A stretch of DNA of 64,000 nucleotides from an uncultured Gammaproteobacteria bacterium (GTDB taxonomy: Bacteria; Patescibacteriota; Patescibacteriia; UBA11705; JABHMO01). Under the pieces are notes generated by a model that was not told the DNA's origin, searched no databases, and saw only the letters and a program-made list of their open reading frames with translations. The translations under genes were made by a program, and so were the position numbers. Below, piece by piece: positions 12,873-62,185 of the stretch; position 1 is the first letter of the stretch, and every line of letters begins with the position of its first letter. The stretch covers positions 160,395 to 224,394 of the forward strand of contig CAZPYM010000001.1 of assembly GCA_964590105.1 (NCBI GenBank), in the 5' to 3' direction.

Positions 12873-12901
12873 AGTTCTAACATCGTCCGCGACCCCGAGC
12901 C
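12873..12901. repeat. 29-nt direct repeat copy 1 (gttctaacatcgtccGcgaccccgagcca), followed by a hairpin and T-run.
   Basis: It matches 16837-16865 at 28 of 29 positions. It is followed by AAAAGCTCTTCACacttaGTGAAGCGCTTTTGTTTT, a terminator-like hairpin. Confidence 0.6.
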
Positions 12902-13112
12902 AACAAAAGCTCTTCACACTTAGTGAAGCGCTTTTGTTTTGACGAATAACCTTACAAATTAATACAACAGCCAGTGTTTTCAATTGATGTTATATTGTAA
13001 ATAAATAATCCCCTCTAAAAATTGACAAATTATAATTATGGGTATATACTCACTATAAAGATATCCAAAGGTCGAATAGCTAATCGTTATTAAAACATAA
13101 CCATACAAATGT

Positions 13113-16836: not shown

Positions 16837-16865
16837 GTTCTAACATCGTCCACGACCCCGAGCCA
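16837..16865. repeat. 29-nt direct repeat copy 2 (gttctaacatcgtccAcgaccccgagcca), followed by a hairpin and T-run.
   Basis: It lies immediately 3' of the CcdA-fusion gene. It is followed by GGCACCACTCGtttttttaggaaagtGAGTGGTGCtttgtttt. Confidence 0.6.
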
Positions 16866-17355
16866 GGCACCACTCGTTTTTTTAGGAAAGTGAGTGGTGC
16901 TTTGTTTTAAGTTTAACTCGGGTGCCTGGTAAGCCAGAATCTACCTGTTATTCCGGAAAAATGAGTGGTTTTACCTAGGGATATTGTGGAAACTCTGGGA
17001 TTTAGCTATAATATAGACATATTGTTATTTCTTTATATAAAATCATGGGCTAAATATTTTCATTGTTTTTATCAAGTTTGCCCTGGAATTTTAACGATTA
17101 TGACTTGTTAAAACGGTGGGGGTTTGGGGGTAATTGCTGAGTCAGTGGCCATGGGTTATCGACGAAGTAACATCATCATTATATTCAATATCCACCTTGT
17201 GAATAATGGCGCGGGGGACTCAGAACCACGAAAAAGATGCTCTGACGCGAATCAATAACCCCCAAAACTTTTGTTACTTTTGGTTACAAAAGTAAAAGCT
17301 AGAAATAGAGATTTTTGCCTGTCTATACCGAATGATTCACTATAATAACGCATAG

Positions 17356-55699: not shown

Positions 55700-55745
55700 T
55701 AAAATAGGAATTAGTTGGGTGGACGGCGGGTGAGTAATCACCTCG
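55700..55745. terminator. Bidirectional terminator hairpin.
   Basis: GGGTGGACGGCGGGTGAgtaaTCACCTCGCCGCCCACCC, a ~17-bp stem with 2 mismatches, sits between convergent genes. Confidence 0.5.
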
Positions 55746-55762
55746 CCGCCCACCCGGCCTTG

Positions 55763-56113
55763 TTAGAGCGTGCGAATAACGGCACGCCCATACTTTCTGT
55801 CGCAGTGAGTGATATTCAGGATGTGCCATCCCTGATCCTGTGTGAACTGGACTTTGAACATGCGCGGGTGGAACATTCCTTGCCAGCGCTCAACAAAGGG
55901 ATACCGAGCAATCCAGTGCTCGAATTCCTCAATTCCGCCTTGCCGGAGGATGCCCAGGGCACAAATTGCGACATCAGTTCTGAAGCCACCTTTTTCATCG
56001 GGATACGACGAGAGCCGGTTGCAGAGCTTCGTTGCCAACATCCCGACCATGGGCGGGAACGCGGTGGCGACGAAAATCATCAATGAACGAAGTATGTCTG
56101 AAAGTACTTGCAT
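55763..56113 (-). CDS. Hypothetical protein (116 aa) in a locally GC-elevated segment.
   Basis: I chose the start at the ATG with AAGGAGAAAAC just upstream on the minus strand. The overlapping plus-strand ORFs are rejected. Confidence 0.45.
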   Translation of the reverse strand: MQVLSDILRSLMIFVATAFPPMVGMLATKLCNRLSSYPDEKGGFRTDVAICALGILRQGGIEEFEHWIARYPFVERWQGMFHPRMFKVQFTQDQGWHILNITHCDRKYGRAVIRTL

Positions 56114-56359
56114 GTTTTCTCCTTCTTGTTTGTGATTCAAATCGAACTATATGGTGTCTGGATCTAGAACTGAATATAATATCATAAAAATTAGGGCATG
56201 TCAATAAGACCACATCAAATTTGGCTAAAATAAGTCACGATAACGTAAAATTGCTTAAATAATTGGAAAAAGTATAAAGCCTCTGCGTCGATTTATTGAT
56301 ATTATTTTATGTAATCATAATATTTAAATGTCACTTCTTGCTTTTCACAGAGTTAAAAT

Positions 56360-56510: not shown

Positions 56511-56585
56511 TTCGGGATAGTAAAATTGGTATAACATCGCGCTGTTAACGCGAAGTTCCAGGTTCGAGCCCTGGTCCCGGAGCCA
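56511..56585 (+). tRNA. tRNA-Asn (anticodon GTT).
   Basis: I folded it by hand. Acceptor TTCGGGA/TCCCGGA, anticodon stem TCGCG/CGCGA with loop CTGTTAA, T-arm CCAGG-TTCGAGC-CCTGG, discriminator G and CCA. Length 75 nt. Confidence 0.85.
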
Positions 56586-56653
56586 TAAAAAATAAATTTA
56601 GATATAAAAAGACCAGGGCGAGATCCCGCCACTCGCGAGCGGCGGCGAGAAGT

Positions 56654-57097
56654 TTATCCCGAGTTAAAGCGAGGGAAGCCCTGGTCCCGGAGCCAAACAG
56701 GACAGCCATCAGAATTGGCGGCTGTTTTTGTTTGTGTGTTTGCGAGATTTAGCACTAAATCAAAGGGTTTTTTGAGTTGAAAGGTAAGAACTTTACCTGT
56801 TACTGTTGGGTTTTGAAGTATATAATTTAAAAATGTTCTTTTTTTAGCAATTTCAGAACTTTTTTCAAAAATAGTCTTTGCTCTGCGAGCTACAGAAATG
56901 ACTGTGGCAACAGTAGTTTGATTATTATAATCGGCTTTTGTGTGTTCAGATAGTTCAATTTCAAGGGTTTGTATTTGGTCTTGGTATTTTTGATGTTTCC
57001 TGTCATATGTATCCTTAGTAATACACCCCTTGGTGTGTGTTTTGTTGTTGCTATTGACAGATAATCTATTATGATATATACTTAAACTGTTAAACAA
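56654..57097 (-). pseudogene. TTG-initiated ORF overlapping the att repeat. Possible remnant of a recombinase or other element gene. Very uncertain.
   Basis: There is no ATG start. It sits where an integrase would be expected next to attL. Confidence 0.15.
56677..56695 (+). repeat. Direct repeat of the tRNA-Asn 3' end (19/19 nt: agccctggtcccggagcca). att-like.
   Basis: An exact copy lies 110 bp downstream of the tRNA. Confidence 0.7.
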
Positions 57098-57122
57098 GTA
57101 TTTAATTATTTAATCAATAACG

Positions 57123-57458
57123 ATGCTTAGCAAAAAAGAAATTCAAAAAAACCGCAAAATGTTGACCACAGCCGACAAAAGCATGGCGGCGACATTTAAG
57201 GTATTGGGTGATGTTAATCGCTACCGAATTTTTCGCGTCCTTGTGGAGCAGCCAAAGCTTTCTGTAAGTGCCATCGCCGAGATCCTGGACATCTCTCTGC
57301 CTCTGACATCACAACATATCAAAGTTTTAGTGAATAGCAACCTGCTCCAAAAAGTGCGGGATGGAAAAAGAATTTTTCCAAAAATTAAACAAGATAATCC
57401 GTTCGTTCCTGCCATACTTAAAACAATTAAATTGGCTTACAAGTCACGGATTAAATAA
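57123..57458 (+). CDS. ArsR/SmtB family transcriptional regulator.
   Basis: ATFKVLGDVNRYRIFRVL...LSVSAIAEILDISLPLTSQHIKVLVNSNLL is an ArsR-type HTH. Confidence 0.75.
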   Translation: MLSKKEIQKNRKMLTTADKSMAATFKVLGDVNRYRIFRVLVEQPKLSVSAIAEILDISLPLTSQHIKVLVNSNLLQKVRDGKRIFPKIKQDNPFVPAILKTIKLAYKSRIK

Positions 57459-57952
57459 ATAAAATATTATGAAAAAAATGCTCTGATTCTGCTCGCTGTC
57501 GTTTTTCGGTTTTAATGGTTGGTGCTGGCTGTACAAAAGTCGATATTAATGAAGATAATTTGGCTTATACTGAAAGAAATAATCAAATGGTTGTTAGCGC
57601 TATTATTAGAACGGGAGTAAAAATTGTTACAACAAAAGTTGCGACAAAGGTAAATACGACAACTAACCCAAAACATTACGGAAAAGAAAAACAATGTGTG
57701 GACAATTACCATCGCCATCATCTGTTGTGATTATTGACGGTGTGGATGTTGTTAAAATAATTACTGAATCAAATGCTTGATAAGAACAGTAACGGTAAAG
57801 GTCTCCAATATTTTAAATTATACAAAATTGATTTGAATCAAAACGCATTATTCCAATTTGGTGAGTTTGACAGCGCGTACACTAAAATTGGAGATTGGAA
57901 ATAATATAACTCACTTAATTATATAACTTACTTAATTAATTAAAAAATAATT

Positions 57953-58819
57953 ATGAAAAAAACTTTATTACTGCTGGCCATGGCTACCGCTATATTAATG
58001 GTGGGGGGCGGTTGTTCGAAGCAAGATACGAATGATCAAACAAGCGCTGGTGACAATACTGCCACCACTGTTGCTGATGGGACTGCAGACTGGAAAACAT
58101 TCCTTGGTTCTCAGTTCCAATTTTCATTTAAGTATCCGCGCGATTGGTTTATAACCAAAGGCTCTAGCATAGAATCTCAGCCAGAAGCAGTATTCATTTC
58201 CGAAGTAAAGCTTGAAGAGGGCGGGGAGGATCTTGGCAATTTAAGTATAGTTGTAAATAAATCTTCTCTTGAAAAAAATATACGAAAAAACTTGATAAGT
58301 CGTGAGGAAATTACTTTCGCTGATCGACCAGCAACAAAAATAAAATTTACTGGTGATTGGGGTCCAGCAATGATTTCTATACTTGTTCCCTATGACAAAT
58401 ATACTTTTGTCATCAGTTACGATCCAGAAGACAAAAACTATTCGAGCATAGAAAAAATACTAAACAGTTTTTCTTTTGAGACGACAGCGCAATCAGACTT
58501 GGAAACCTATTCGTCTGAAAAATATTCTTTCAAATATTCCAATGGATATAAGATTGACGATTCAAATGAATATGTACTCTATCTAACAAAAGAAAAAAAT
58601 AGAAAACTTGTAATTTTTCAGGCAAAAGAGGGCCACTATGGAGAAGGAGGTATTCAACTGGGAGCACCTCAAGAACAAATTGATCAAGAGGTCCCAAAAG
58701 AACAATTGACAGTTGGTAGCGGCGAAAATGAATATGACATATGGATATATTACAGCAAGGATGACGCTACTGCGGAAGGTGAATTGGATGCGATTTTTAA
58801 TTCAATAACAGTTAAATAA
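57953..58819 (+). CDS. Putative lipoprotein, unknown function.
   Basis: Signal peptide with lipobox-like ...MVGGGC. It shares the F.F..P..W motif with 59543..60397. Confidence 0.5.
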   Translation: MKKTLLLLAMATAILMVGGGCSKQDTNDQTSAGDNTATTVADGTADWKTFLGSQFQFSFKYPRDWFITKGSSIESQPEAVFISEVKLEEGGEDLGNLSIVVNKSSLEKNIRKNLISREEITFADRPATKIKFTGDWGPAMISILVPYDKYTFVISYDPEDKNYSSIEKILNSFSFETTAQSDLETYSSEKYSFKYSNGYKIDDSNEYVLYLTKEKNRKLVIFQAKEGHYGEGGIQLGAPQEQIDQEVPKEQLTVGSGENEYDIWIYYSKDDATAEGELDAIFNSITVK

Positions 58820-58841
58820 AATTATAATTAACTTTAACTAT

Positions 58842-58991
58842 ATGTTGTGGACAATCGCTGTAATTCTAATCGTTCTTTGGTTGCTCGGTTTCGTCGCCTT
58901 TCATGTCTTAGGGTCTTTTATCCATCTCCTGCTGGTGATCGCTATTATCGTCGTACTCATTAGAGTGATCAAAGGTCAAAAAGTATTATAA
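58842..58991 (+). CDS. lmo0937-family small membrane protein (49 aa). Not in the ORF track.
   Basis: My manual translation gives MLWTIAVILIVLWLLGFVAFHVLGSFIHLLLVIAIIVVLIRVIKGQKVL. A paralog lies at 61313. Confidence 0.5.
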   Translation: MLWTIAVILIVLWLLGFVAFHVLGSFIHLLLVIAIIVVLIRVIKGQKVL

Positions 58992-59033
58992 GTCAAAAAT
59001 GAAAGATAATATTTATTATTAACCATAAATCAT

Positions 59034-59378
59034 ATGGATTCAACTAATTCACCCAGCACCAAGCCCTTATATCGCGGAACTCAAATCGTCTGGTATCTTG
59101 TTGGCCTTGTTGAGATCTTACTGATGTTTCGTTTCCTATTAAAGCTGTTCGGCGCCAATGTTGCGGCTGGATTTACCAATTTCATTTACACAGTTTCCAT
59201 GCCATTCGCCGTACCATTCATCAGTGTGTTTGGTACAAGTCGAGTAGAGGGCGCTTTGTTTGAATGGACTACGCTTTTGGCGATGTTCGTTTACTTGCTT
59301 ATTGGTTGGGGTATTACCAAACTTTTCTTAATCGGTAAAACTGTTTCGACACCAGAGGCGGCCAGTAAGCTTAATTAA
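59034..59378 (+). CDS. YggT family membrane protein.
   Basis: LLKLFGAN...PF...GALFEWTTLLAMFVYLLIGWGI is YggT-like. Confidence 0.55.
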   Translation: MDSTNSPSTKPLYRGTQIVWYLVGLVEILLMFRFLLKLFGANVAAGFTNFIYTVSMPFAVPFISVFGTSRVEGALFEWTTLLAMFVYLLIGWGITKLFLIGKTVSTPEAASKLN

Positions 59379-59542
59379 TGAAAAACAAATCTTGTAGCGG
59401 CCAAATTCTTTGAAATTTATTCATTATAAATTTACCCAAATCACTATGGTAAGGTGTAAGGTGTACCCTTTGTCTAGACAGTAATATGGGGTGAAAGAGG
59501 CAAAAGAAGAAGAGGCAAAAAATAATTTCTAATTCTAAACTT

Positions 59543-60397
59543 ATGAAATCAAACACATTTAAAATCGTTCTCGCTGTAATAGTTACCGCAATCATCGTTA
59601 GTGGAGGAGTTTATTATTGGCACCAAAGTAAAAGCGTCGAGGTGTCTAGTGGCAAGTATGAGAATTCCAAATACGGTTTTACTTTAAATTTTCCGAAAAA
59701 TTGGGGAGAAATAAAAGAAGAGGTGGAAAATGCCAGCCTGGGCTCAAAAATTGATTATCATAACTTTTTGCTAACATCCATGGTGGATCCACAGCGCTAT
59801 ATCAAAATTCAAGTATTAAAGAATGAAGATGTAGACGCCCCTTTTGTGGTAGACAATCCACAGGTATTAATCACTAGTGATTCAACTCATAGTTACTATT
59901 ACTCAGGTGCCGGTGACAGTGCCGGCAAACCAGGGATGGAGGATCAAAAATATTTTGATATTCAAAAAGAAGTAAAGGAAGTCAGCGAAACTTTTGCCCT
60001 TACACTTAATATTGAAACCAATGAGGCTATCATATCTGGATCAAACGATGCTAGCCAAATCAGAACGAAAATCTTTACAAACACTTCTGGTGATTACTCT
60101 GTTAATTATCCAGCGGATTGGAGTCAAGGCGTAAATGGTGCACCAGACCCATTACTTATTGAAAAAGTATATTTCTTCAGAAGCCCAGCAGAACAAAGTA
60201 AAGGCTTTGATACCGTCAATATCACAAAATTTTCTAGCAAAGGGGCTAGCTATGAAGAACTGCTTGAACAAAATCCAGATTATATAATTAAGGAGAGTAA
60301 AGGGATGATATATGTTTTAACGTATTCAAATAAAAACTTCCCTGAAGAAACTCGTAAAATTTTTGAACTAATTTCAGATTCGTTTCAAATGAATTAA
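59543..60397 (+). CDS. Membrane-anchored or secreted hypothetical protein.
   Basis: N-terminal TM anchor, 284 aa. Confidence 0.45.
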   Translation: MKSNTFKIVLAVIVTAIIVSGGVYYWHQSKSVEVSSGKYENSKYGFTLNFPKNWGEIKEEVENASLGSKIDYHNFLLTSMVDPQRYIKIQVLKNEDVDAPFVVDNPQVLITSDSTHSYYYSGAGDSAGKPGMEDQKYFDIQKEVKEVSETFALTLNIETNEAIISGSNDASQIRTKIFTNTSGDYSVNYPADWSQGVNGAPDPLLIEKVYFFRSPAEQSKGFDTVNITKFSSKGASYEELLEQNPDYIIKESKGMIYVLTYSNKNFPEETRKIFELISDSFQMN

Positions 60398-60536
60398 CGT
60401 GAGTTATTCTTCGCCTATCAGCCCAAAGTAGTTAAATAAAAAATTTAATGAGCCCTTTATAGAGGCGCTGGAATTTTCCAGGCTCCTTCAAGGGCTCATT
60501 GAGCTCTTCCACAGATCAAGCAAAGAGGGGTAGAAA

Positions 60537-61139
60537 ATGAAGAACATGTTAGTGTTTGTAGCATTAATCATCTTGTGTGTCAGCTGTGGCGTTGAAAACG
60601 ACGCTGATTGGGATGCTGGTGACGTTGCTGGCGATGTTGAGGAATTGACCAATTGCGGAGAAGTATACGGATGTGGCAACAACGTACCGTTGTACTATTC
60701 AACCGAGGGGGTTGATGTTGAAGTCTCAATGGTGGATGCTCCGTTCGGTTTTACTGCCGAAAAGTTGATGGCAATGGCCGACGAGTGTGGAACTACGTAT
60801 GAACCAGGCTACTTCGAGGCGCTGGTGAAAACGTTCACCGACACCGACATCGGTGGCGTCAAACTACAGTTTGTCTTTAGGTATGAGGGAGAAAGCCAAG
60901 ACAGTGATTCATTTGTTGTCACCCTCTTACAGAACTATCCGGGGTACAAATCTATGGAGGAATTTCAAAAGGATTTCGCTCTTTGCTATGCGGGAGGAGA
61001 TGCTTATCCAATGATGTTTAACTCCCATTGGCTCCTCTTTGAAAACTCCTGCTCCACCGGATTCAATGATGGTTCCGGACTACCAATTGGATGCCAAGAA
61101 GTAAAGGACATCGTCTCCCCTTCGCTTAAGCTCAATTAA
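60537..61139 (+). CDS. Putative lipoprotein or secreted protein, hypothetical.
   Basis: Signal peptide ending CVSCG, 200 aa. Confidence 0.45.
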   Translation: MKNMLVFVALIILCVSCGVENDADWDAGDVAGDVEELTNCGEVYGCGNNVPLYYSTEGVDVEVSMVDAPFGFTAEKLMAMADECGTTYEPGYFEALVKTFTDTDIGGVKLQFVFRYEGESQDSDSFVVTLLQNYPGYKSMEEFQKDFALCYAGGDAYPMMFNSHWLLFENSCSTGFNDGSGLPIGCQEVKDIVSPSLKLN

Positions 61140-61312
61140 GTGAAGACACAGGTTTAATCATCCTGCGAAAATGATTCGCTCTACCAAAGAAGTTTCCAGT
61201 ATCAAGCAATTGGTATTAGAATTCTAAAAGCAGAGTGACGGCGATGGGGATTGGAATTCAATCCCCGCCATAAATTTCTAGTGAGTATGGCTTTATTCTT
61301 AACTTTAATTAT

Positions 61313-61462
61313 ATGTTGTGGACAATAGCTGTCATTTTAATTATTTTGTGGTTGCTTGGACTTGTTACTTCCTACACTCTTGGAGGCTTCATCCACATCT
61401 TGTTTGTAATCGCCGTTATTGTAGTACTAATCAGATTAATTAAAGATCAAAAATTAATATAA
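61313..61462 (+). CDS. lmo0937-family small membrane protein (49 aa), second copy.
   Basis: My manual translation gives MLWTIAVILIILWLLGLVTSYTLGGFIHILFVIAVIVVLIRLIKDQKLI. About 60 nt of its upstream region is also duplicated. Confidence 0.5.
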   Translation: MLWTIAVILIILWLLGLVTSYTLGGFIHILFVIAVIVVLIRLIKDQKLI

Positions 61463-61797
61463 ATTATATGGCACACGATAAAATTATTGATCATAAAGAT
61501 GAAAAAAACGTCTGTATCAAGAATATTATAAAAAGTGATTGAAAGACGCCAGAGAAAGTATCTAAAAAAAGAAGAAATAGAGGAATAAAAAGAGATTGAA
61601 AAAATTATAATCACATAAATTGATTATGAAAAAGAAAGTCATTGTTATTTTAGTAGTAATTGTTTCATGCCTTGGCTTTTAGCAAAGGGTGTTTTACAAT
61701 AGAAGATCAGGACTCGAATAGGGGAGCTGGAGTGGCGGAAGCTCTTACAAGAGTATATCTGTCTGCCGGCAGGCAGGCGAAGTGACGAGTGAGATGT

Positions 61798-61813
61798 CCT
61801 GGTCCCGGAGCCA
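61798..61813 (+). repeat. Third copy of the tRNA-Asn 3' end (16 nt: cctggtcccggagcca). Candidate attR.
   Basis: It matches 56570-56585 and 56680-56695 and is followed by hairpins. Confidence 0.65.
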
Positions 61814-61926
61814 TGAACCACTCGCTCATTTCATTCGTTCGGGTTCATGGCAGCCCAAGAGTAATAAGTGAGTGGTTCATGCAGTGAACTTGAGGAACGA
61901 ATAGTTCACTGCTATAATATAGTTGT

Positions 61927-62185
61927 ATGAATTTTTCTTATGTTTATAGCTTAAAAAATTTAAGAGATGGAAAGTTTTATGTTGGTCTAGCCGCGGATTT
62001 AAATAGAATGGTTTTAGAACATCAAAAAGGAAAAATATTTCAACATCAAAACGTTTGCCGCTGGGGTTAATTTATTATGAAGCGTTTTTGTCTAAGAAAG
62101 ATGCTCAAAGAAGAGAGCGGTATTTTAAAACAAAAAAGGAAAAACTACTTTGAGGCAGATGCTTCGTGAGTATTTAATAATATGA
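61927..62185 (+). pseudogene. GIY-YIG (UPF0213-like) nuclease gene interrupted by two frameshifts at A-runs.
   Basis: Frame 1 gives MNFSYVYSLKNLRDGKFYVGLAADLNRMVLEHQKGK. The next frame gives STSKRLPLGLIYYEAFLSKKDAQRRERYFKTKKEK. A third gives TTLRQMLREYL. Together these match GIY-YIG small proteins. Confidence 0.55.

What the first reader, a model, noticed from the sequence alone, without database searches (positions are those of the whole stretch)
56511..61813. tRNA-Asn 3' end present three times: intact tRNA plus copies 110 bp and 5.2 kb downstream. Nested or degenerate integrative element lacking an integrase.
The repeats are 19/19 and 16/16 identical to the tRNA 3' end. This is the classic attL/attR signature of integrase-mediated insertion into a tRNA gene. 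The 110-bp GC-rich spacer between copies 1 and 2 looks like a remnant of an earlier element. The 5.1-kb segment between copies 2 and 3 encodes ArsR, a lipoprotein, two lmo0937-like minigenes, YggT and two secreted or anchored proteins, but no recognisable integrase or excisionase. Only a TTG-initiated dubious ORF is present. A GIY-YIG pseudogene lies just outside attR. This suggests a decayed, immobilised island or satellite-like element whose mobilisation functions were lost, or are supplied in trans.
Basis: seen in the sequence. Interest (0 to 1): 0.55.

Follow-up and report, generated by a model that had tools for sequence, protein, structure and literature searches.

The report
Fossil serine-recombinase element at tRNA-Asn
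The three copies of the tRNA-Asn end are scars left by small mobile elements of a family found across candidate-phyla-radiation (CPR) bacteria, and the "dubious ORF" is the remnant of their serine-type integrase, cut at one exact nucleotide where the same cut recurs in dozens of unrelated genomes.

Summary
The tRNA-Asn(GTT) gene lies at 56511-56585. Exact copies of its 3' end lie at 56677-56695 (19 nt) and 61798-61813 (16 nt). Chance expectation is 0.06.

These are att-site scars of a decayed island, but the integrase is not missing. ORF 56654-57097(-) is the last ~110 codons of a ~500-aa large serine recombinase (LSR), 68% identical to residues 403-503 of an intact one (E=6e-46).

In 79 Patescibacteria loci this gene runs antisense into tRNA-Asn. 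Intact elements are 6-10 kb. They carry the LSR, an HTH_17 protein, a conserved Rep_trans-like protein and defence cargo.

In 37 of 81 gene copies, including the window's, only the C-terminal piece remains. It always starts at the same nucleotide (|ATTACTAAGGA) and arose about 27 times independently. That site has the strongest synonymous-codon constraint in the whole gene.

My best, inferred explanation is that this site is the element's rolling-circle nick site. Replication errors would then produce integrase-less minicircles that still integrate.

The window therefore holds a 91-bp remnant and a 5.1-kb truncated, immobilised element. The island itself is ordinary, but the family and its fixed breakpoint are not.

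The parts
56511..56585 (+). Intact tRNA-Asn(GTT) with encoded CCA. It is the attL-side target, and its last 19 nt are repeat copy 1.
   Evidence: ARAGORN; Rfam RF00005 at 56.9 bits.
56586..56676 (+). 91-bp remnant of a proximal element (element B, with no integrase sequence left). It has an AT-rich start, then a GC-rich hairpin whose 3' arm is the start of copy 2.
   Evidence: Sequence. Fold energy -36.7 kcal/mol, z=-3.75. Its last 20 nt are 75% like the sequence left of copy 3 (D14). The analogous tRNA-spacer-copy layout occurs in L070.
56677..56695 (+). Repeat copy 2, a 19/19 match to the tRNA 3' end. It is the att junction abutting the integrase remnant. Read on the minus strand it encodes the conserved W-L-R at the recombinase C-terminus.
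   Evidence: TGGCTCCGG encodes WLR.
56697..56734 (+). Terminator-like hairpin plus T-run directly after copy 2. The same feature follows every att-like site in the window.
   Evidence: alignment; sequence.
56687..57022 (-). int(C): the last 112 codons (ITKD...WLR) of a large serine recombinase gene, with an intact reading frame but no N-terminal 400 codons.
   Evidence: 119 homologues at 60-80% identity, some with PF13408 or named 'site-specific DNA recombinase'. BLASTP to L009 LSR residues 403-503: 68% identity, E=6e-46. No int(N) anywhere in the 64-kb window.
57018..57032 (-). Breakpoint b1, between 57022 and 57023 (GGTGT|ATTACTAAGG on the minus strand). It is the family-wide truncation point and the proposed rolling-circle nick site.
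57123..57458 (+). ArsR/SmtB-family regulator. It is the first cargo gene, and its promoter region abuts b1.
   Evidence: NCBIfam NF033788, E=1.6e-17; Pfam HTH_20 and HTH_5.
57953..61462 (+). Remaining cargo: PsbP_2-like lipoprotein (57953-58819), DUF5670 (58842-58991), YggT-like (59034-59378), PsbP_2-like (59543-60397), 200-aa exported protein (60537-61139) and DUF5670 (61313-61462).
   Evidence: None of these has a homologue in the cargo of the other elements.
61700..61797 (+). Distal end (X arm) of element A. It is GC-rich and includes a T-arm-like CAGGACTCGAAT that pairs with the start of copy 3.
   Evidence: D14.
61798..61813 (+). Repeat copy 3 (16/16). This is attR, the displaced original 3' end of the tRNA.
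   Evidence: An independent ENA contig of the same strain ends exactly here.
61814..61912 (+). Two strong hairpins in the flank outside attR.
   Evidence: Fold energy -43.6 kcal/mol, z=-6.0.
61927..62153 (+). Frameshifted small GIY-YIG (UPF0213-like) gene outside the element.

Best explanation
The locus is the fossil of at least two successive insertions into the 3' end of tRNA-Asn. Both came from one family of small integrative elements that is widespread in Patescibacteria (CPR).

Intact members are 6-10 kb. At the tRNA end they carry a ~505-aa large serine recombinase gene. Its last codons (..NWLR) are the antisense of the tRNA 3' end, so attP overlaps the end of the integrase gene. They also carry an HTH_17 (excisionase-like) protein, a conserved 376-aa Rep_trans-like replication initiator and defence cargo. 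At the far end they have a short tRNA-like att copy.

In the window:
- The proximal element is reduced to 91 bp plus its att copy (56586-56695).
- The distal element (56677-61813) keeps only the last 112 integrase codons, about 4.7 kb of cargo and its attR copy. It has no catalytic recombinase domain and no Rep, so it cannot move on its own.

Shown: the repeats, the identity of the integrase remnant, the family architecture, and the recurrence and exactness of the truncation point.

Inferred (my estimate about 0.45): the truncation point AGAGT^ATTACTAAGGA is the nick site of the element's Rep_trans-like initiator, embedded in the integrase gene. Premature termination of rolling-circle replication on the excised circle would give a minicircle running from the nick through int(C) and attP to a pseudo-site. 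That minicircle lacks rep and the integrase N-terminus. A recombinase supplied in trans by the parent could still insert it into tRNA-Asn, where it is stranded.
For: Repeats:
- The three copies are exact, against a chance expectation of 0.06.

The ORF is an LSR C-terminus:
-.
- Full-length genes have Resolvase, Recombinase and Zn_ribbon_recom domains.

Family architecture:
- 79 loci from different Patescibacteria species were recovered.
- A convergent tRNA-Asn lies 7-43 nt after the conserved core in about 45 of them.
- Twelve further loci have a tRNA-Asn carrying a group I intron.
- Direct repeats of the tRNA 3' end (15-22 nt) lie 6.2-9.7 kb away in L014, L020, L050, L071 and L074.
- Co-oriented Z-type attR sites lie 6-10 kb upstream in nearly every full-length locus, and 0.6-4.8 kb upstream of the truncated ones.
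- L070 reproduces the window's layout of tRNA, ~100-nt spacer, copy, int(C) and copy.

Breakpoint:
- All 37 truncated copies start at |ATTACTAAGG.
- Left of the junction only G-5, G-4 and G-2 are conserved.
- Truncated and full-length copies are interspersed on the tree, with 27 state changes.
- Truncated copies are 90-96% identical to full-length elements in genomes whose flanks are unrelated or about 70% identical.
- A scan seeded with the N-terminal part found essentially no reciprocal fragments.
- Codons 400-409 have the lowest synonymous entropy in the gene: 0.50 against a mean of 1.24 bits across 92 genes.

Rep and nick-site model:
- The 376-aa protein is present in 35 of 44 full-length loci. 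In truncated loci it occurs only as an N-terminal stump fused at b1 in L042.
- PF02486 Rep_trans matches 4 of 30 members, best E=4.4e-5.
- A Foldseek search of BFVD gave matches with E down to 2.6e-10, including an Inoviridae Rep.
- L112 has a 255-nt deletion immediately upstream of b1.
- L047 has an exact 11-nt tandem duplication of positions +1 to +11.
- L119 has a junction at +10.
- In pT181-type Rep_trans plasmids the dso lies inside a coding region, and synthesis overshoots the nick by 10-12 nt before termination (PMC5703833).
Against: - No excised circle, empty attB or read-level heterogeneity was seen for this strain.
- The window's cargo has no homologue in other family members. It cannot be shown to be original element cargo rather than later acquisitions.
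- The Rep assignment is sub-threshold in Pfam. PDB Foldseek and PDB sequence searches found nothing. The best BFVD matches are unnamed.
- There is no conserved hairpin around b1, although pT181-type origins are nicked in a cruciform.
- Nothing shows which strand is nicked.
- The 91-bp remnant and the cassettes with no integrase sequence at all (arrays in L053, L072 and L032) are not explained by a nick at b1.
- Long (15-22 nt) att identity is unusual for serine recombinases.
Confidence: 0.8

Rival explanations
1. First reader's model. A classic tyrosine-integrase island or satellite inserted in the tRNA. It has lost its integrase and excisionase entirely and is mobilised, if at all, by functions supplied in trans.
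For: The direct repeats of the tRNA 3' end are real. No complete recombinase is present in the 64-kb window. Pfam finds no integrase domain in the 147-aa ORF.
Against: The ORF is a serine-recombinase C-terminus. Intact relatives at the same site are LSRs. No tyrosine recombinase, capsid, terminase or primase genes were seen in any of the elements examined. IMG/VR holds no close relatives.
Confidence: 0.07
2. The truncation at b1 is made by the serine recombinase itself, or by another site-specific recombinase or nuclease. The enzyme would use b1 as a secondary site and recombine it with weak pseudo-sites (..GGWGR). No rolling-circle nick is involved.
For: Junctions are nucleotide-exact, and a short conserved motif lies on the partner side. 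In L048 the partner is the left half of a genuine Z-type att site. Strong synonymous constraint at b1 fits any cis-acting site.
Against: No dinucleotide is shared between b1 and its partners at the junction, as serine recombinases require. b1 has no convincing similarity to the tRNA or Z att core. The 11-nt duplication in L047 and the +10 junction in L119 are not expected from conservative recombination, but they match the Rep_trans overshoot.
Confidence: 0.2
3. The int(C) stump is an old, vertically inherited landing pad. It looks young because each incoming full-length element is later deleted by homologous recombination between its int(C) and the resident one. That refreshes the sequence up to, but never beyond, b1.
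For: Truncated and full-length copies are interspersed and near-identical while the flanks are unrelated. Mismatches between truncated copies and their nearest full-length relatives are relatively enriched near b1 compared with pairs of full-length copies (about p=0.02, data not independent). None of the 37 stumps has an in-frame stop.
Against: The model still needs an origin for the exact junction. The partner sides are unrelated even between stumps that are 4-6% divergent. It does not explain the conserved G-5, G-4 and G-2 on the partner side. In L042 and L112 the partner lies inside the element's own genes, so the deletions are recent and internal.
Confidence: 0.12
4. The repeats arose by local duplication or chance and have nothing to do with mobile DNA.
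For: No empty site was found for this strain.
Against: Chance expectation is 0.06. The integrase remnant abuts copy 2 in the orientation seen in 79 loci. The sequences between the copies are not duplicates of each other.
Confidence: 0.01

Closest known systems
Genomic islands integrated in tRNA/tmRNA genes (Islander-type definition; PMC4383910, abstract seen)
   Same: An intact tRNA is regenerated by element sequence. A displaced 3' fragment marks the far end. The integrase gene lies next to the tRNA. Tandem accretion occurs.
   Different: Those islands are catalysed by tyrosine integrases, according to that paper's abstract. Here the enzyme is a large serine recombinase. In many members the att identity is only about 7 nt (TGGCTCC) plus a degenerate T-arm mimic.
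Tycheposons of Prochlorococcus (bioRxiv 10.1101/2020.12.28.424599)
   Same: Small cargo-carrying elements target tRNA genes. Neighbouring elements are separated only by partial tRNAs. Fragmented integrases and extra partial tRNAs remain as relics. A minority of tycheposons use large serine recombinases, and many carry their own replication module.
   Different: The host phylum is different (CPR). The replication gene is Rep_trans-like rather than a primase, helicase or polymerase. Integrase fragments here end at one fixed nucleotide, which is not reported there.
pT181-family Rep_trans rolling-circle plasmids (PMC5703833)
   Same: The initiator has a Rep_trans signature and an IYDK-type tyrosine motif. 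In pT181 the origin lies inside a coding region, and the same is proposed here. Abrupt single-nucleotide cassette junctions are known for RCR plasmids. The 10-12-nt overshoot past the nick matches the +10 and +11 events in L119 and L047.
   Different: These elements integrate through an LSR. The proposed origin lies in the integrase gene rather than in rep. No cruciform-forming palindrome was found. Nicking has not been demonstrated.
Integrases whose gene overlaps attP (Myxococcus phage Mx8 int/intX; Sulfolobus SSV1 split int). Recalled from memory, not checked here.
   Same: The 3' end of the integrase ORF runs through the att core. The C-terminal tail therefore differs between the attP form (WLxxxDxFRT... 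tails) and the integrated form (a tail read from antisense tRNA).
   Different: Those are tyrosine recombinases. The SSV-type split into int(N) and int(C) on integration was tested and rejected here, because there are no int(N) orphans.

Membership tests
tRNA-integrated genomic island / integrative element | Intact tRNA gene plus a displaced direct-repeat copy of its 3' end bounding foreign DNA | tested here: met
   Exact copies of 19 and 16 nt lie 92 nt and 5.2 kb downstream.
tRNA-integrated genomic island / integrative element | Integrase gene at the tRNA-proximal end | tested here: met
   A remnant only in the window, 56687-57022(-). Full-length genes occupy the same position in 44 related copies.
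tRNA-integrated genomic island / integrative element | Empty site in related genomes, or an excised circle | tested here: inconclusive
   Every contig carrying the flanking genes also carries the island. Relatives include attP-type (Z-tail) junctions, but no circular contig was proven.
Tyrosine (phage-type) integrase island | Tyrosine recombinase catalytic domain | tested here: not met
   The remnant and all full-length relatives are serine recombinases. No Phage_integrase hit was found in any protein scanned.
Large serine recombinase (LSR) | N-terminal Resolvase catalytic domain, Recombinase domain and zinc ribbon | tested here: not met
   These are absent from the window (tblastn with int(N) gave no hit). 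They are present in relatives L009, L003, L071 and L252. The window holds a gene fragment, not a member enzyme.
Large serine recombinase (LSR) | Homology of the window ORF to the C-terminal region of bona fide LSRs | tested here: met
   68% identity over residues 403-503 of L009, E=6e-46.
Rep_trans rolling-circle replicon (applies to intact family members) | Rep_trans domain with catalytic tyrosine | tested here: inconclusive
   PF02486 matched 4 of 30 members, best E=4.4e-5, not shown to reach the curated cut-off. The single query gave no hit. A BFVD fold match includes an Inoviridae Rep. PDB searches were negative. The LVIYDK motif was seen in the sequence.
Rep_trans rolling-circle replicon (applies to intact family members) | Defined dso nick site cleaved by the initiator | not testable with these tools
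   Inferred only, from the breakpoint spectrum and synonymous constraint.
Rep_trans rolling-circle replicon (applies to intact family members) | Rep gene present in the window's element | tested here: not met
   tblastn with the 376-aa protein gave no hit in the window.
Phage satellite (PICI-like) | Capsid, terminase or packaging-interference genes, or helper-phage dependence | tested here: not met
   None were found among the window's cargo or in the intact elements. PHROGs gave nothing.
SSV1-type partitioned integrase | attP inside int, so that integration yields int(N) and int(C) at opposite ends | tested here: not met
   No int(N) lies within 10 kb of any truncated copy or in the window. 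Of 80 loci seeded with int(N), all are contiguous with int(C) except L119, whose junction is at +10.

The most novel reading that the evidence does not exclude
A pan-Patescibacteria family of tRNA-Asn-integrating elements has its rolling-circle nick site inside its own serine-integrase gene. Replication termination errors would then systematically shed integrase-less, Rep-less minicircles (int(C) + attP + cargo). These are inserted in trans and fossilise, building the cassette arrays seen downstream of tRNA-Asn and at Z-type sites elsewhere. This would be a replication-driven route to genomic-island formation, and possibly to gene capture, analogous to ISCR or Helitron read-through. The window's 5.1-kb segment is one such product.
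Probability: 0.4. Interest if true: 0.8.

Novelty: new variant of a known kind. Interest (0 to 1): 0.62.

Why it matters
CPR bacteria have tiny genomes and few described mobile elements.

This locus leads to an element family that I did not find described. The family has four notable properties:
- It is present in dozens of Patescibacteria lineages (Saccharibacteria, Paceibacteria, Magasanikbacteria, Gracilibacteria and others).
- It uses a serine rather than a tyrosine recombinase to target a tRNA gene.
- It carries restriction-modification and toxin-antitoxin cargo, so it moves defence systems between CPR lineages.
- It leaves a diagnostic ~340-bp stump with a nucleotide-exact edge.

If the edge is a replication nick site, it gives a directly testable mechanism for how integrase-less islands and cassette arrays arise. 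It would also show that "missing integrase" islands can be born defective rather than decaying slowly.

In practice, the conserved ATTACTAAGGA...NWLR module next to tRNA-Asn is a ready marker for annotating these islands in CPR metagenome-assembled genomes. The LSR/att pairs are candidates for genome-engineering tools.

Tried and rejected
- **Pfam, NCBIfam and PHROGs on the 147-aa ORF.** No domain was found. Homology search was needed instead.
- **SSV-like split integrase.** Rejected, because there are no int(N) orphans.
- **Cassette or transposon insertion at b1, with int(N) displaced.** Rejected. No int(N) lies within 10 kb, and there is no second ATTACTAAGG copy.
- **Deletion between b1 and a repeat in the int 5' UTR.** Rejected, because the leader has no such motif.
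- **A conserved overlapping ORF explaining the DNA conservation at b1.** Rejected. The ORF length ranges from 11 to 59 aa.
- **Partner sites of the form GGWGNATTA enriched in intact elements.** Not above chance.
- **A conserved hairpin at b1.** None was predicted.
- **Assembly artefact.** Rejected. The same junction appears in independent ENA, Logan and JGI contigs and in genomes from many studies.
- **tRNA-primed reverse transcription, and an IS200/IS605 TTAC target.** Both were considered. No reverse transcriptase gene was found, and there are no conserved IS ends left of b1.
- **'X2' tails as tandem att junctions.** Rejected. They are tRNA-Asn genes with a group I intron.
- **Empty-site search by exact flanking proteins.** It found only the same haplotype.
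- **Viral contigs.** No close relatives were found.

Full report
**1.

ARAGORN finds one tRNA in the window, tRNA-Asn(GTT) at 56511-56585 on the + strand, with CCA encoded. Rfam agrees at 56.9 bits.

The 16-mer CCTGGTCCCGGAGCCA occurs exactly at 56570, 56680 and 61798, always on the + strand. Shuffles expect 0.06 matches even with three mismatches allowed. Copy 2 is identical over 19 nt (56677-56695) and copy 3 over 16-17 nt. The two 3-mismatch matches elsewhere lie in coding sequence. No other family of this repeat exists in the window.

A frameshifted GIY-YIG gene lies just outside copy 3.

**2. The "dubious" ORF is the integrase remnant**

ORF 56654-57097(-) has no Pfam, NCBIfam or PHROG domain. 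It does have 119 homologues at 60-80% identity, mostly from Patescibacteria. A few carry the recombinase zinc-ribbon domain or are named site-specific DNA recombinase.

Residues 26-137 align with residues 403-503 of a 504-aa protein from locus L009 (68% identity, E=6e-46). That protein and its relatives have Resolvase, Recombinase and Zn_ribbon_recom domains, so they are large serine recombinases (LSRs).

The last conserved residues, W-L-R, are encoded by TGGCTCCGG. This is the reverse complement of the tRNA 3' end CCGGAGCCA. The att core therefore lies inside the end of the integrase ORF.

**3. Family context**

A scan of one genome per species returned 79 loci, all from Patescibacteria lineages.

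- In about 45 loci the conserved core is followed within 7-43 nt by a convergent tRNA-Asn, and rarely by tRNA-Gln or tRNA-His.
- Twelve more have a tRNA-Asn that ARAGORN missed because a group I intron sits in the anticodon loop (RF00028, 55.4 bits in L037).
- Forty-four gene copies are full length and 37 are C-terminal stumps.
- Full-length elements are bounded on the far side in one of two ways. Some have a 15-22-nt copy of the tRNA 3' end (L014, L020, L050, L071, L074). Others have a degenerate "Z-type" site (TGGCTCC-N-GGAC..TTCGAAC) that mimics the acceptor and T-arm. A profile of that site finds one co-oriented copy 6-10 kb upstream in nearly every full-length locus with enough flank (see also L252).

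Typical gene content:
- small unknown proteins;
- a conserved 376-aa protein;
- a 58-62-aa HTH_17 protein;
- restriction-modification genes (type II or type III) or SocA/Panacea toxin-antitoxin genes;
- the LSR.

IMG/VR holds only 25-30% identical recombinases, and no virion genes were seen. These are small integrative elements carrying defence cargo, not recognisable phages.

**4. Reading the window**

On the tRNA-sense strand the order is:
- tRNA (copy 1);
- a 91-bp remnant;
- copy 2;
- a terminator hairpin;
- int(C) in antisense;
- the b1 junction;
- the ArsR promoter and cargo;
- a GC-rich X arm;
- copy 3;
- the flank.

This is what two successive integrations into the regenerated tRNA would give, followed by loss of almost all of the proximal element and of the integrase N-terminus plus more from the distal one. 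The last 20 nt before copies 2 and 3 are 75% alike (D14), so the two elements had related attP arms.

L070 has the same layout, with copies at +106 and +1615 and a stump between them. tblastn finds no integrase N-terminus and no Rep-like gene anywhere in the 64-kb window. The element is therefore non-autonomous.

Every contig of this strain in ENA, Logan and JGI assemblies carries the island. Several contigs break at copy 3 or near 56768. That hints at graph branching but proves nothing.

**5. The unexpected part: a nucleotide-exact breakpoint**

All 37 stumps start at the same position, |ATTACTAAGGA(C/T)ATCTATGACAA, which I call b1. In the window b1 lies between 57022 and 57023.

- Left of it the DNA is unrelated between loci, except for G at -5 (27/37), -4 (33/37) and -2 (35/37). 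Full-length genes read CCAGAGT| at this position.
- On a tree of the 288-nt core, stumps and full-length copies are interspersed, with 27 state changes.
- Stumps are 90-96% identical to full-length elements in genomes whose flanks are unrelated or about 70% identical. The similarity stops dead at b1. The stumps are therefore recent and recurrent.
- The asymmetry is strong. A metagenome scan seeded with the N-terminal 402 residues returned 80 loci, essentially all contiguous with int(C).
- In 92 full-length genes, codons 400-409 (GAC CAG AGT|ATT ACT AAG GAC) have the lowest synonymous-codon entropy of the whole gene, 0.50 against a mean of 1.24 bits. b1 is therefore a cis-acting nucleic-acid site in intact elements.

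**6. Proposed mechanism for b1 (inferred)**

The conserved 376-aa protein is present in 35 of 44 full-length loci and in no stump locus as an intact gene. The evidence that it is a Rep_trans-like initiator is as follows:
- Four of 30 family members match Pfam Rep_trans, best E=4.4e-5.
- It contains an LVIYDK motif.
- An AlphaFold model (pLDDT 73.5) matches BFVD ssDNA-phage proteins with E down to 2.6e-10, including an Inoviridae Rep.
- Against this, PDB searches were negative.

The rearrangements at b1 look like rolling-circle termination errors:
- **Stumps.** They retain everything 3' of the site (int(C) plus attP) and lose a variable stretch 5' of it. Their Z-type attR lies only 0.6-4.8 kb away.
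- **L112.** It lost just 255 nt immediately upstream of b1.
- **L042.** The deletion ends inside the Rep-like gene itself, with junction CAGAGA|ATTAC.
- **L047.** It has an exact 11-nt tandem duplication of +1 to +11.
- **L119.** It has a junction at +10.

For pT181-type Rep_trans plasmids, a review states that the dso lies within a coding region. It also states that leading-strand synthesis runs 10-12 nt past the nick before termination, and that RCR plasmids show cassette junctions that are abrupt to the nucleotide (PMC5703833).

My model is therefore:
- Rep nicks AGAGT^ATTAC on the excised circle.
- Premature strand transfer at a pseudo-site (..GGWGR^) releases a minicircle that still has attP.
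- The parent's LSR inserts it into tRNA-Asn.

I put this at about 0.45. Weak points:
- there is no conserved hairpin at b1;
- the Rep assignment is sub-threshold;
- nicking has not been demonstrated;
- the model does not explain the 91-bp remnant or the cassettes that lack int(C) altogether (L053, L072, L032).

**7. Rivals for b1**

- **Recombination by the LSR at b1 with pseudo-sites.** It fits the exactness, and it fits L048, whose partner is a Z-site half. It does not fit the lack of a shared crossover dinucleotide, nor the +10 and +11 events.
- **An ancient stump refreshed by homologous recombination with incoming elements.** It fits the interspersion and a weak mismatch gradient. It does not fit the internal deletions in L042 and L112, nor the conserved partner motif.

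**8. Comparison with known systems**

Conceptually this is a tRNA-integrated island array, as in Islander-type islands and especially the tycheposons of Prochlorococcus. The tycheposon study reports tandem elements separated by partial tRNAs, fragmented integrases, a minority of LSRs and replication modules.

It differs in four respects:
- host phylum;
- consistent use of an LSR at a tRNA;
- a Rep_trans-like replication gene;
- the fixed breakpoint.

Literature searches for this combination returned nothing specific.

**9. Verdict**

The island in the window is an ordinary kind of object, a decayed and immobilised integrative element. It belongs to a family that I did not find described, with an unusual and testable property. 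Novelty: new variant of a known kind. Interest: 0.62.

Noticed in passing
window 12874-12902 and 16837-16865: A 29-nt direct repeat (GTTCTAACATCGTCCRCGACCCCGAGCCA, 97% identical) is a Z-type att-like site of the same element family. It has the same orientation as the integrase remnant 40 kb away, and each copy is followed by a terminator hairpin. The two copies bracket a 3,963-bp cassette (SDR, DUF134-like, ZIP transporter, thioredoxin-like and DsbD-like genes). There is no recombinase or tRNA nearby.
   Followed up: partly
window 55700-56140: A 440-bp stretch just upstream of the tRNA has 53% GC in a genome of about 36% GC. ORFs are open on both strands, and different gene callers chose opposite strands. 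It has no Pfam, NCBIfam or Rfam hit and no homologue in any fetched locus. A bidirectional terminator-like hairpin sits at 55705-55750.
   Followed up: partly
L037:6464-6734 (also L006, L007, L033, L035, L046, L049, L056, L059, L062, L064, L076): In twelve related genomes the tRNA-Asn gene is split between anticodon positions 35 and 36 by a group I intron (RF00028, 55.4 bits in L037, with an insert of about 546 bp). ARAGORN misses these tRNAs.
   Followed up: partly
L047:9978-10022; L119:11160-11200; L112:10911-10951: Three full-length-type genes carry small rearrangements anchored at b1. L047 has an exact 11-nt tandem duplication of ATTACTAAGGA. L119 has a junction to unrelated DNA 10 nt after b1. 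L112 has a 255-nt deletion ending exactly at b1.
   Followed up: yes
L053:249-6561; L072:1754-6227; L032:6884-11469; L051:1441-4936: Arrays of three to six co-oriented Z-type att sites lie 0.6-2 kb apart. Some are preceded by integrase stumps and some by nothing. These are cassette arrays reminiscent of integrons, built on serine-recombinase att sites.
   Followed up: partly
window 58822-58888 and 61293-61359: The two DUF5670/lmo0937 minigenes share 84% nucleotide identity over 67 nt, including 20 nt upstream of the start codon. This points to a recent duplication inside the island.
   Followed up: no
window 61814-61912: Two very stable hairpins (-43.6 kcal/mol, z=-6) lie immediately outside attR. 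The first shares ACCACTCG...GAGTGGT with the hairpin that follows the Z-type site at 16866-16905.
   Followed up: partly
window 56768 and 61816 (contig ends of L248, L250 and L001): Independent assemblies of the same strain break at copy 3 and about 70 nt inside the integrase remnant. This may reflect shared k-mers with other elements, or population heterogeneity at the att sites.
   Followed up: no
P0009 (JGI contig, 203 aa): In one metagenomic stump the sequence left of b1 is the N-terminal half of an IS200-like Y1 (HUH) transposase (PF01797), fused in frame to ITKD.
   Followed up: no
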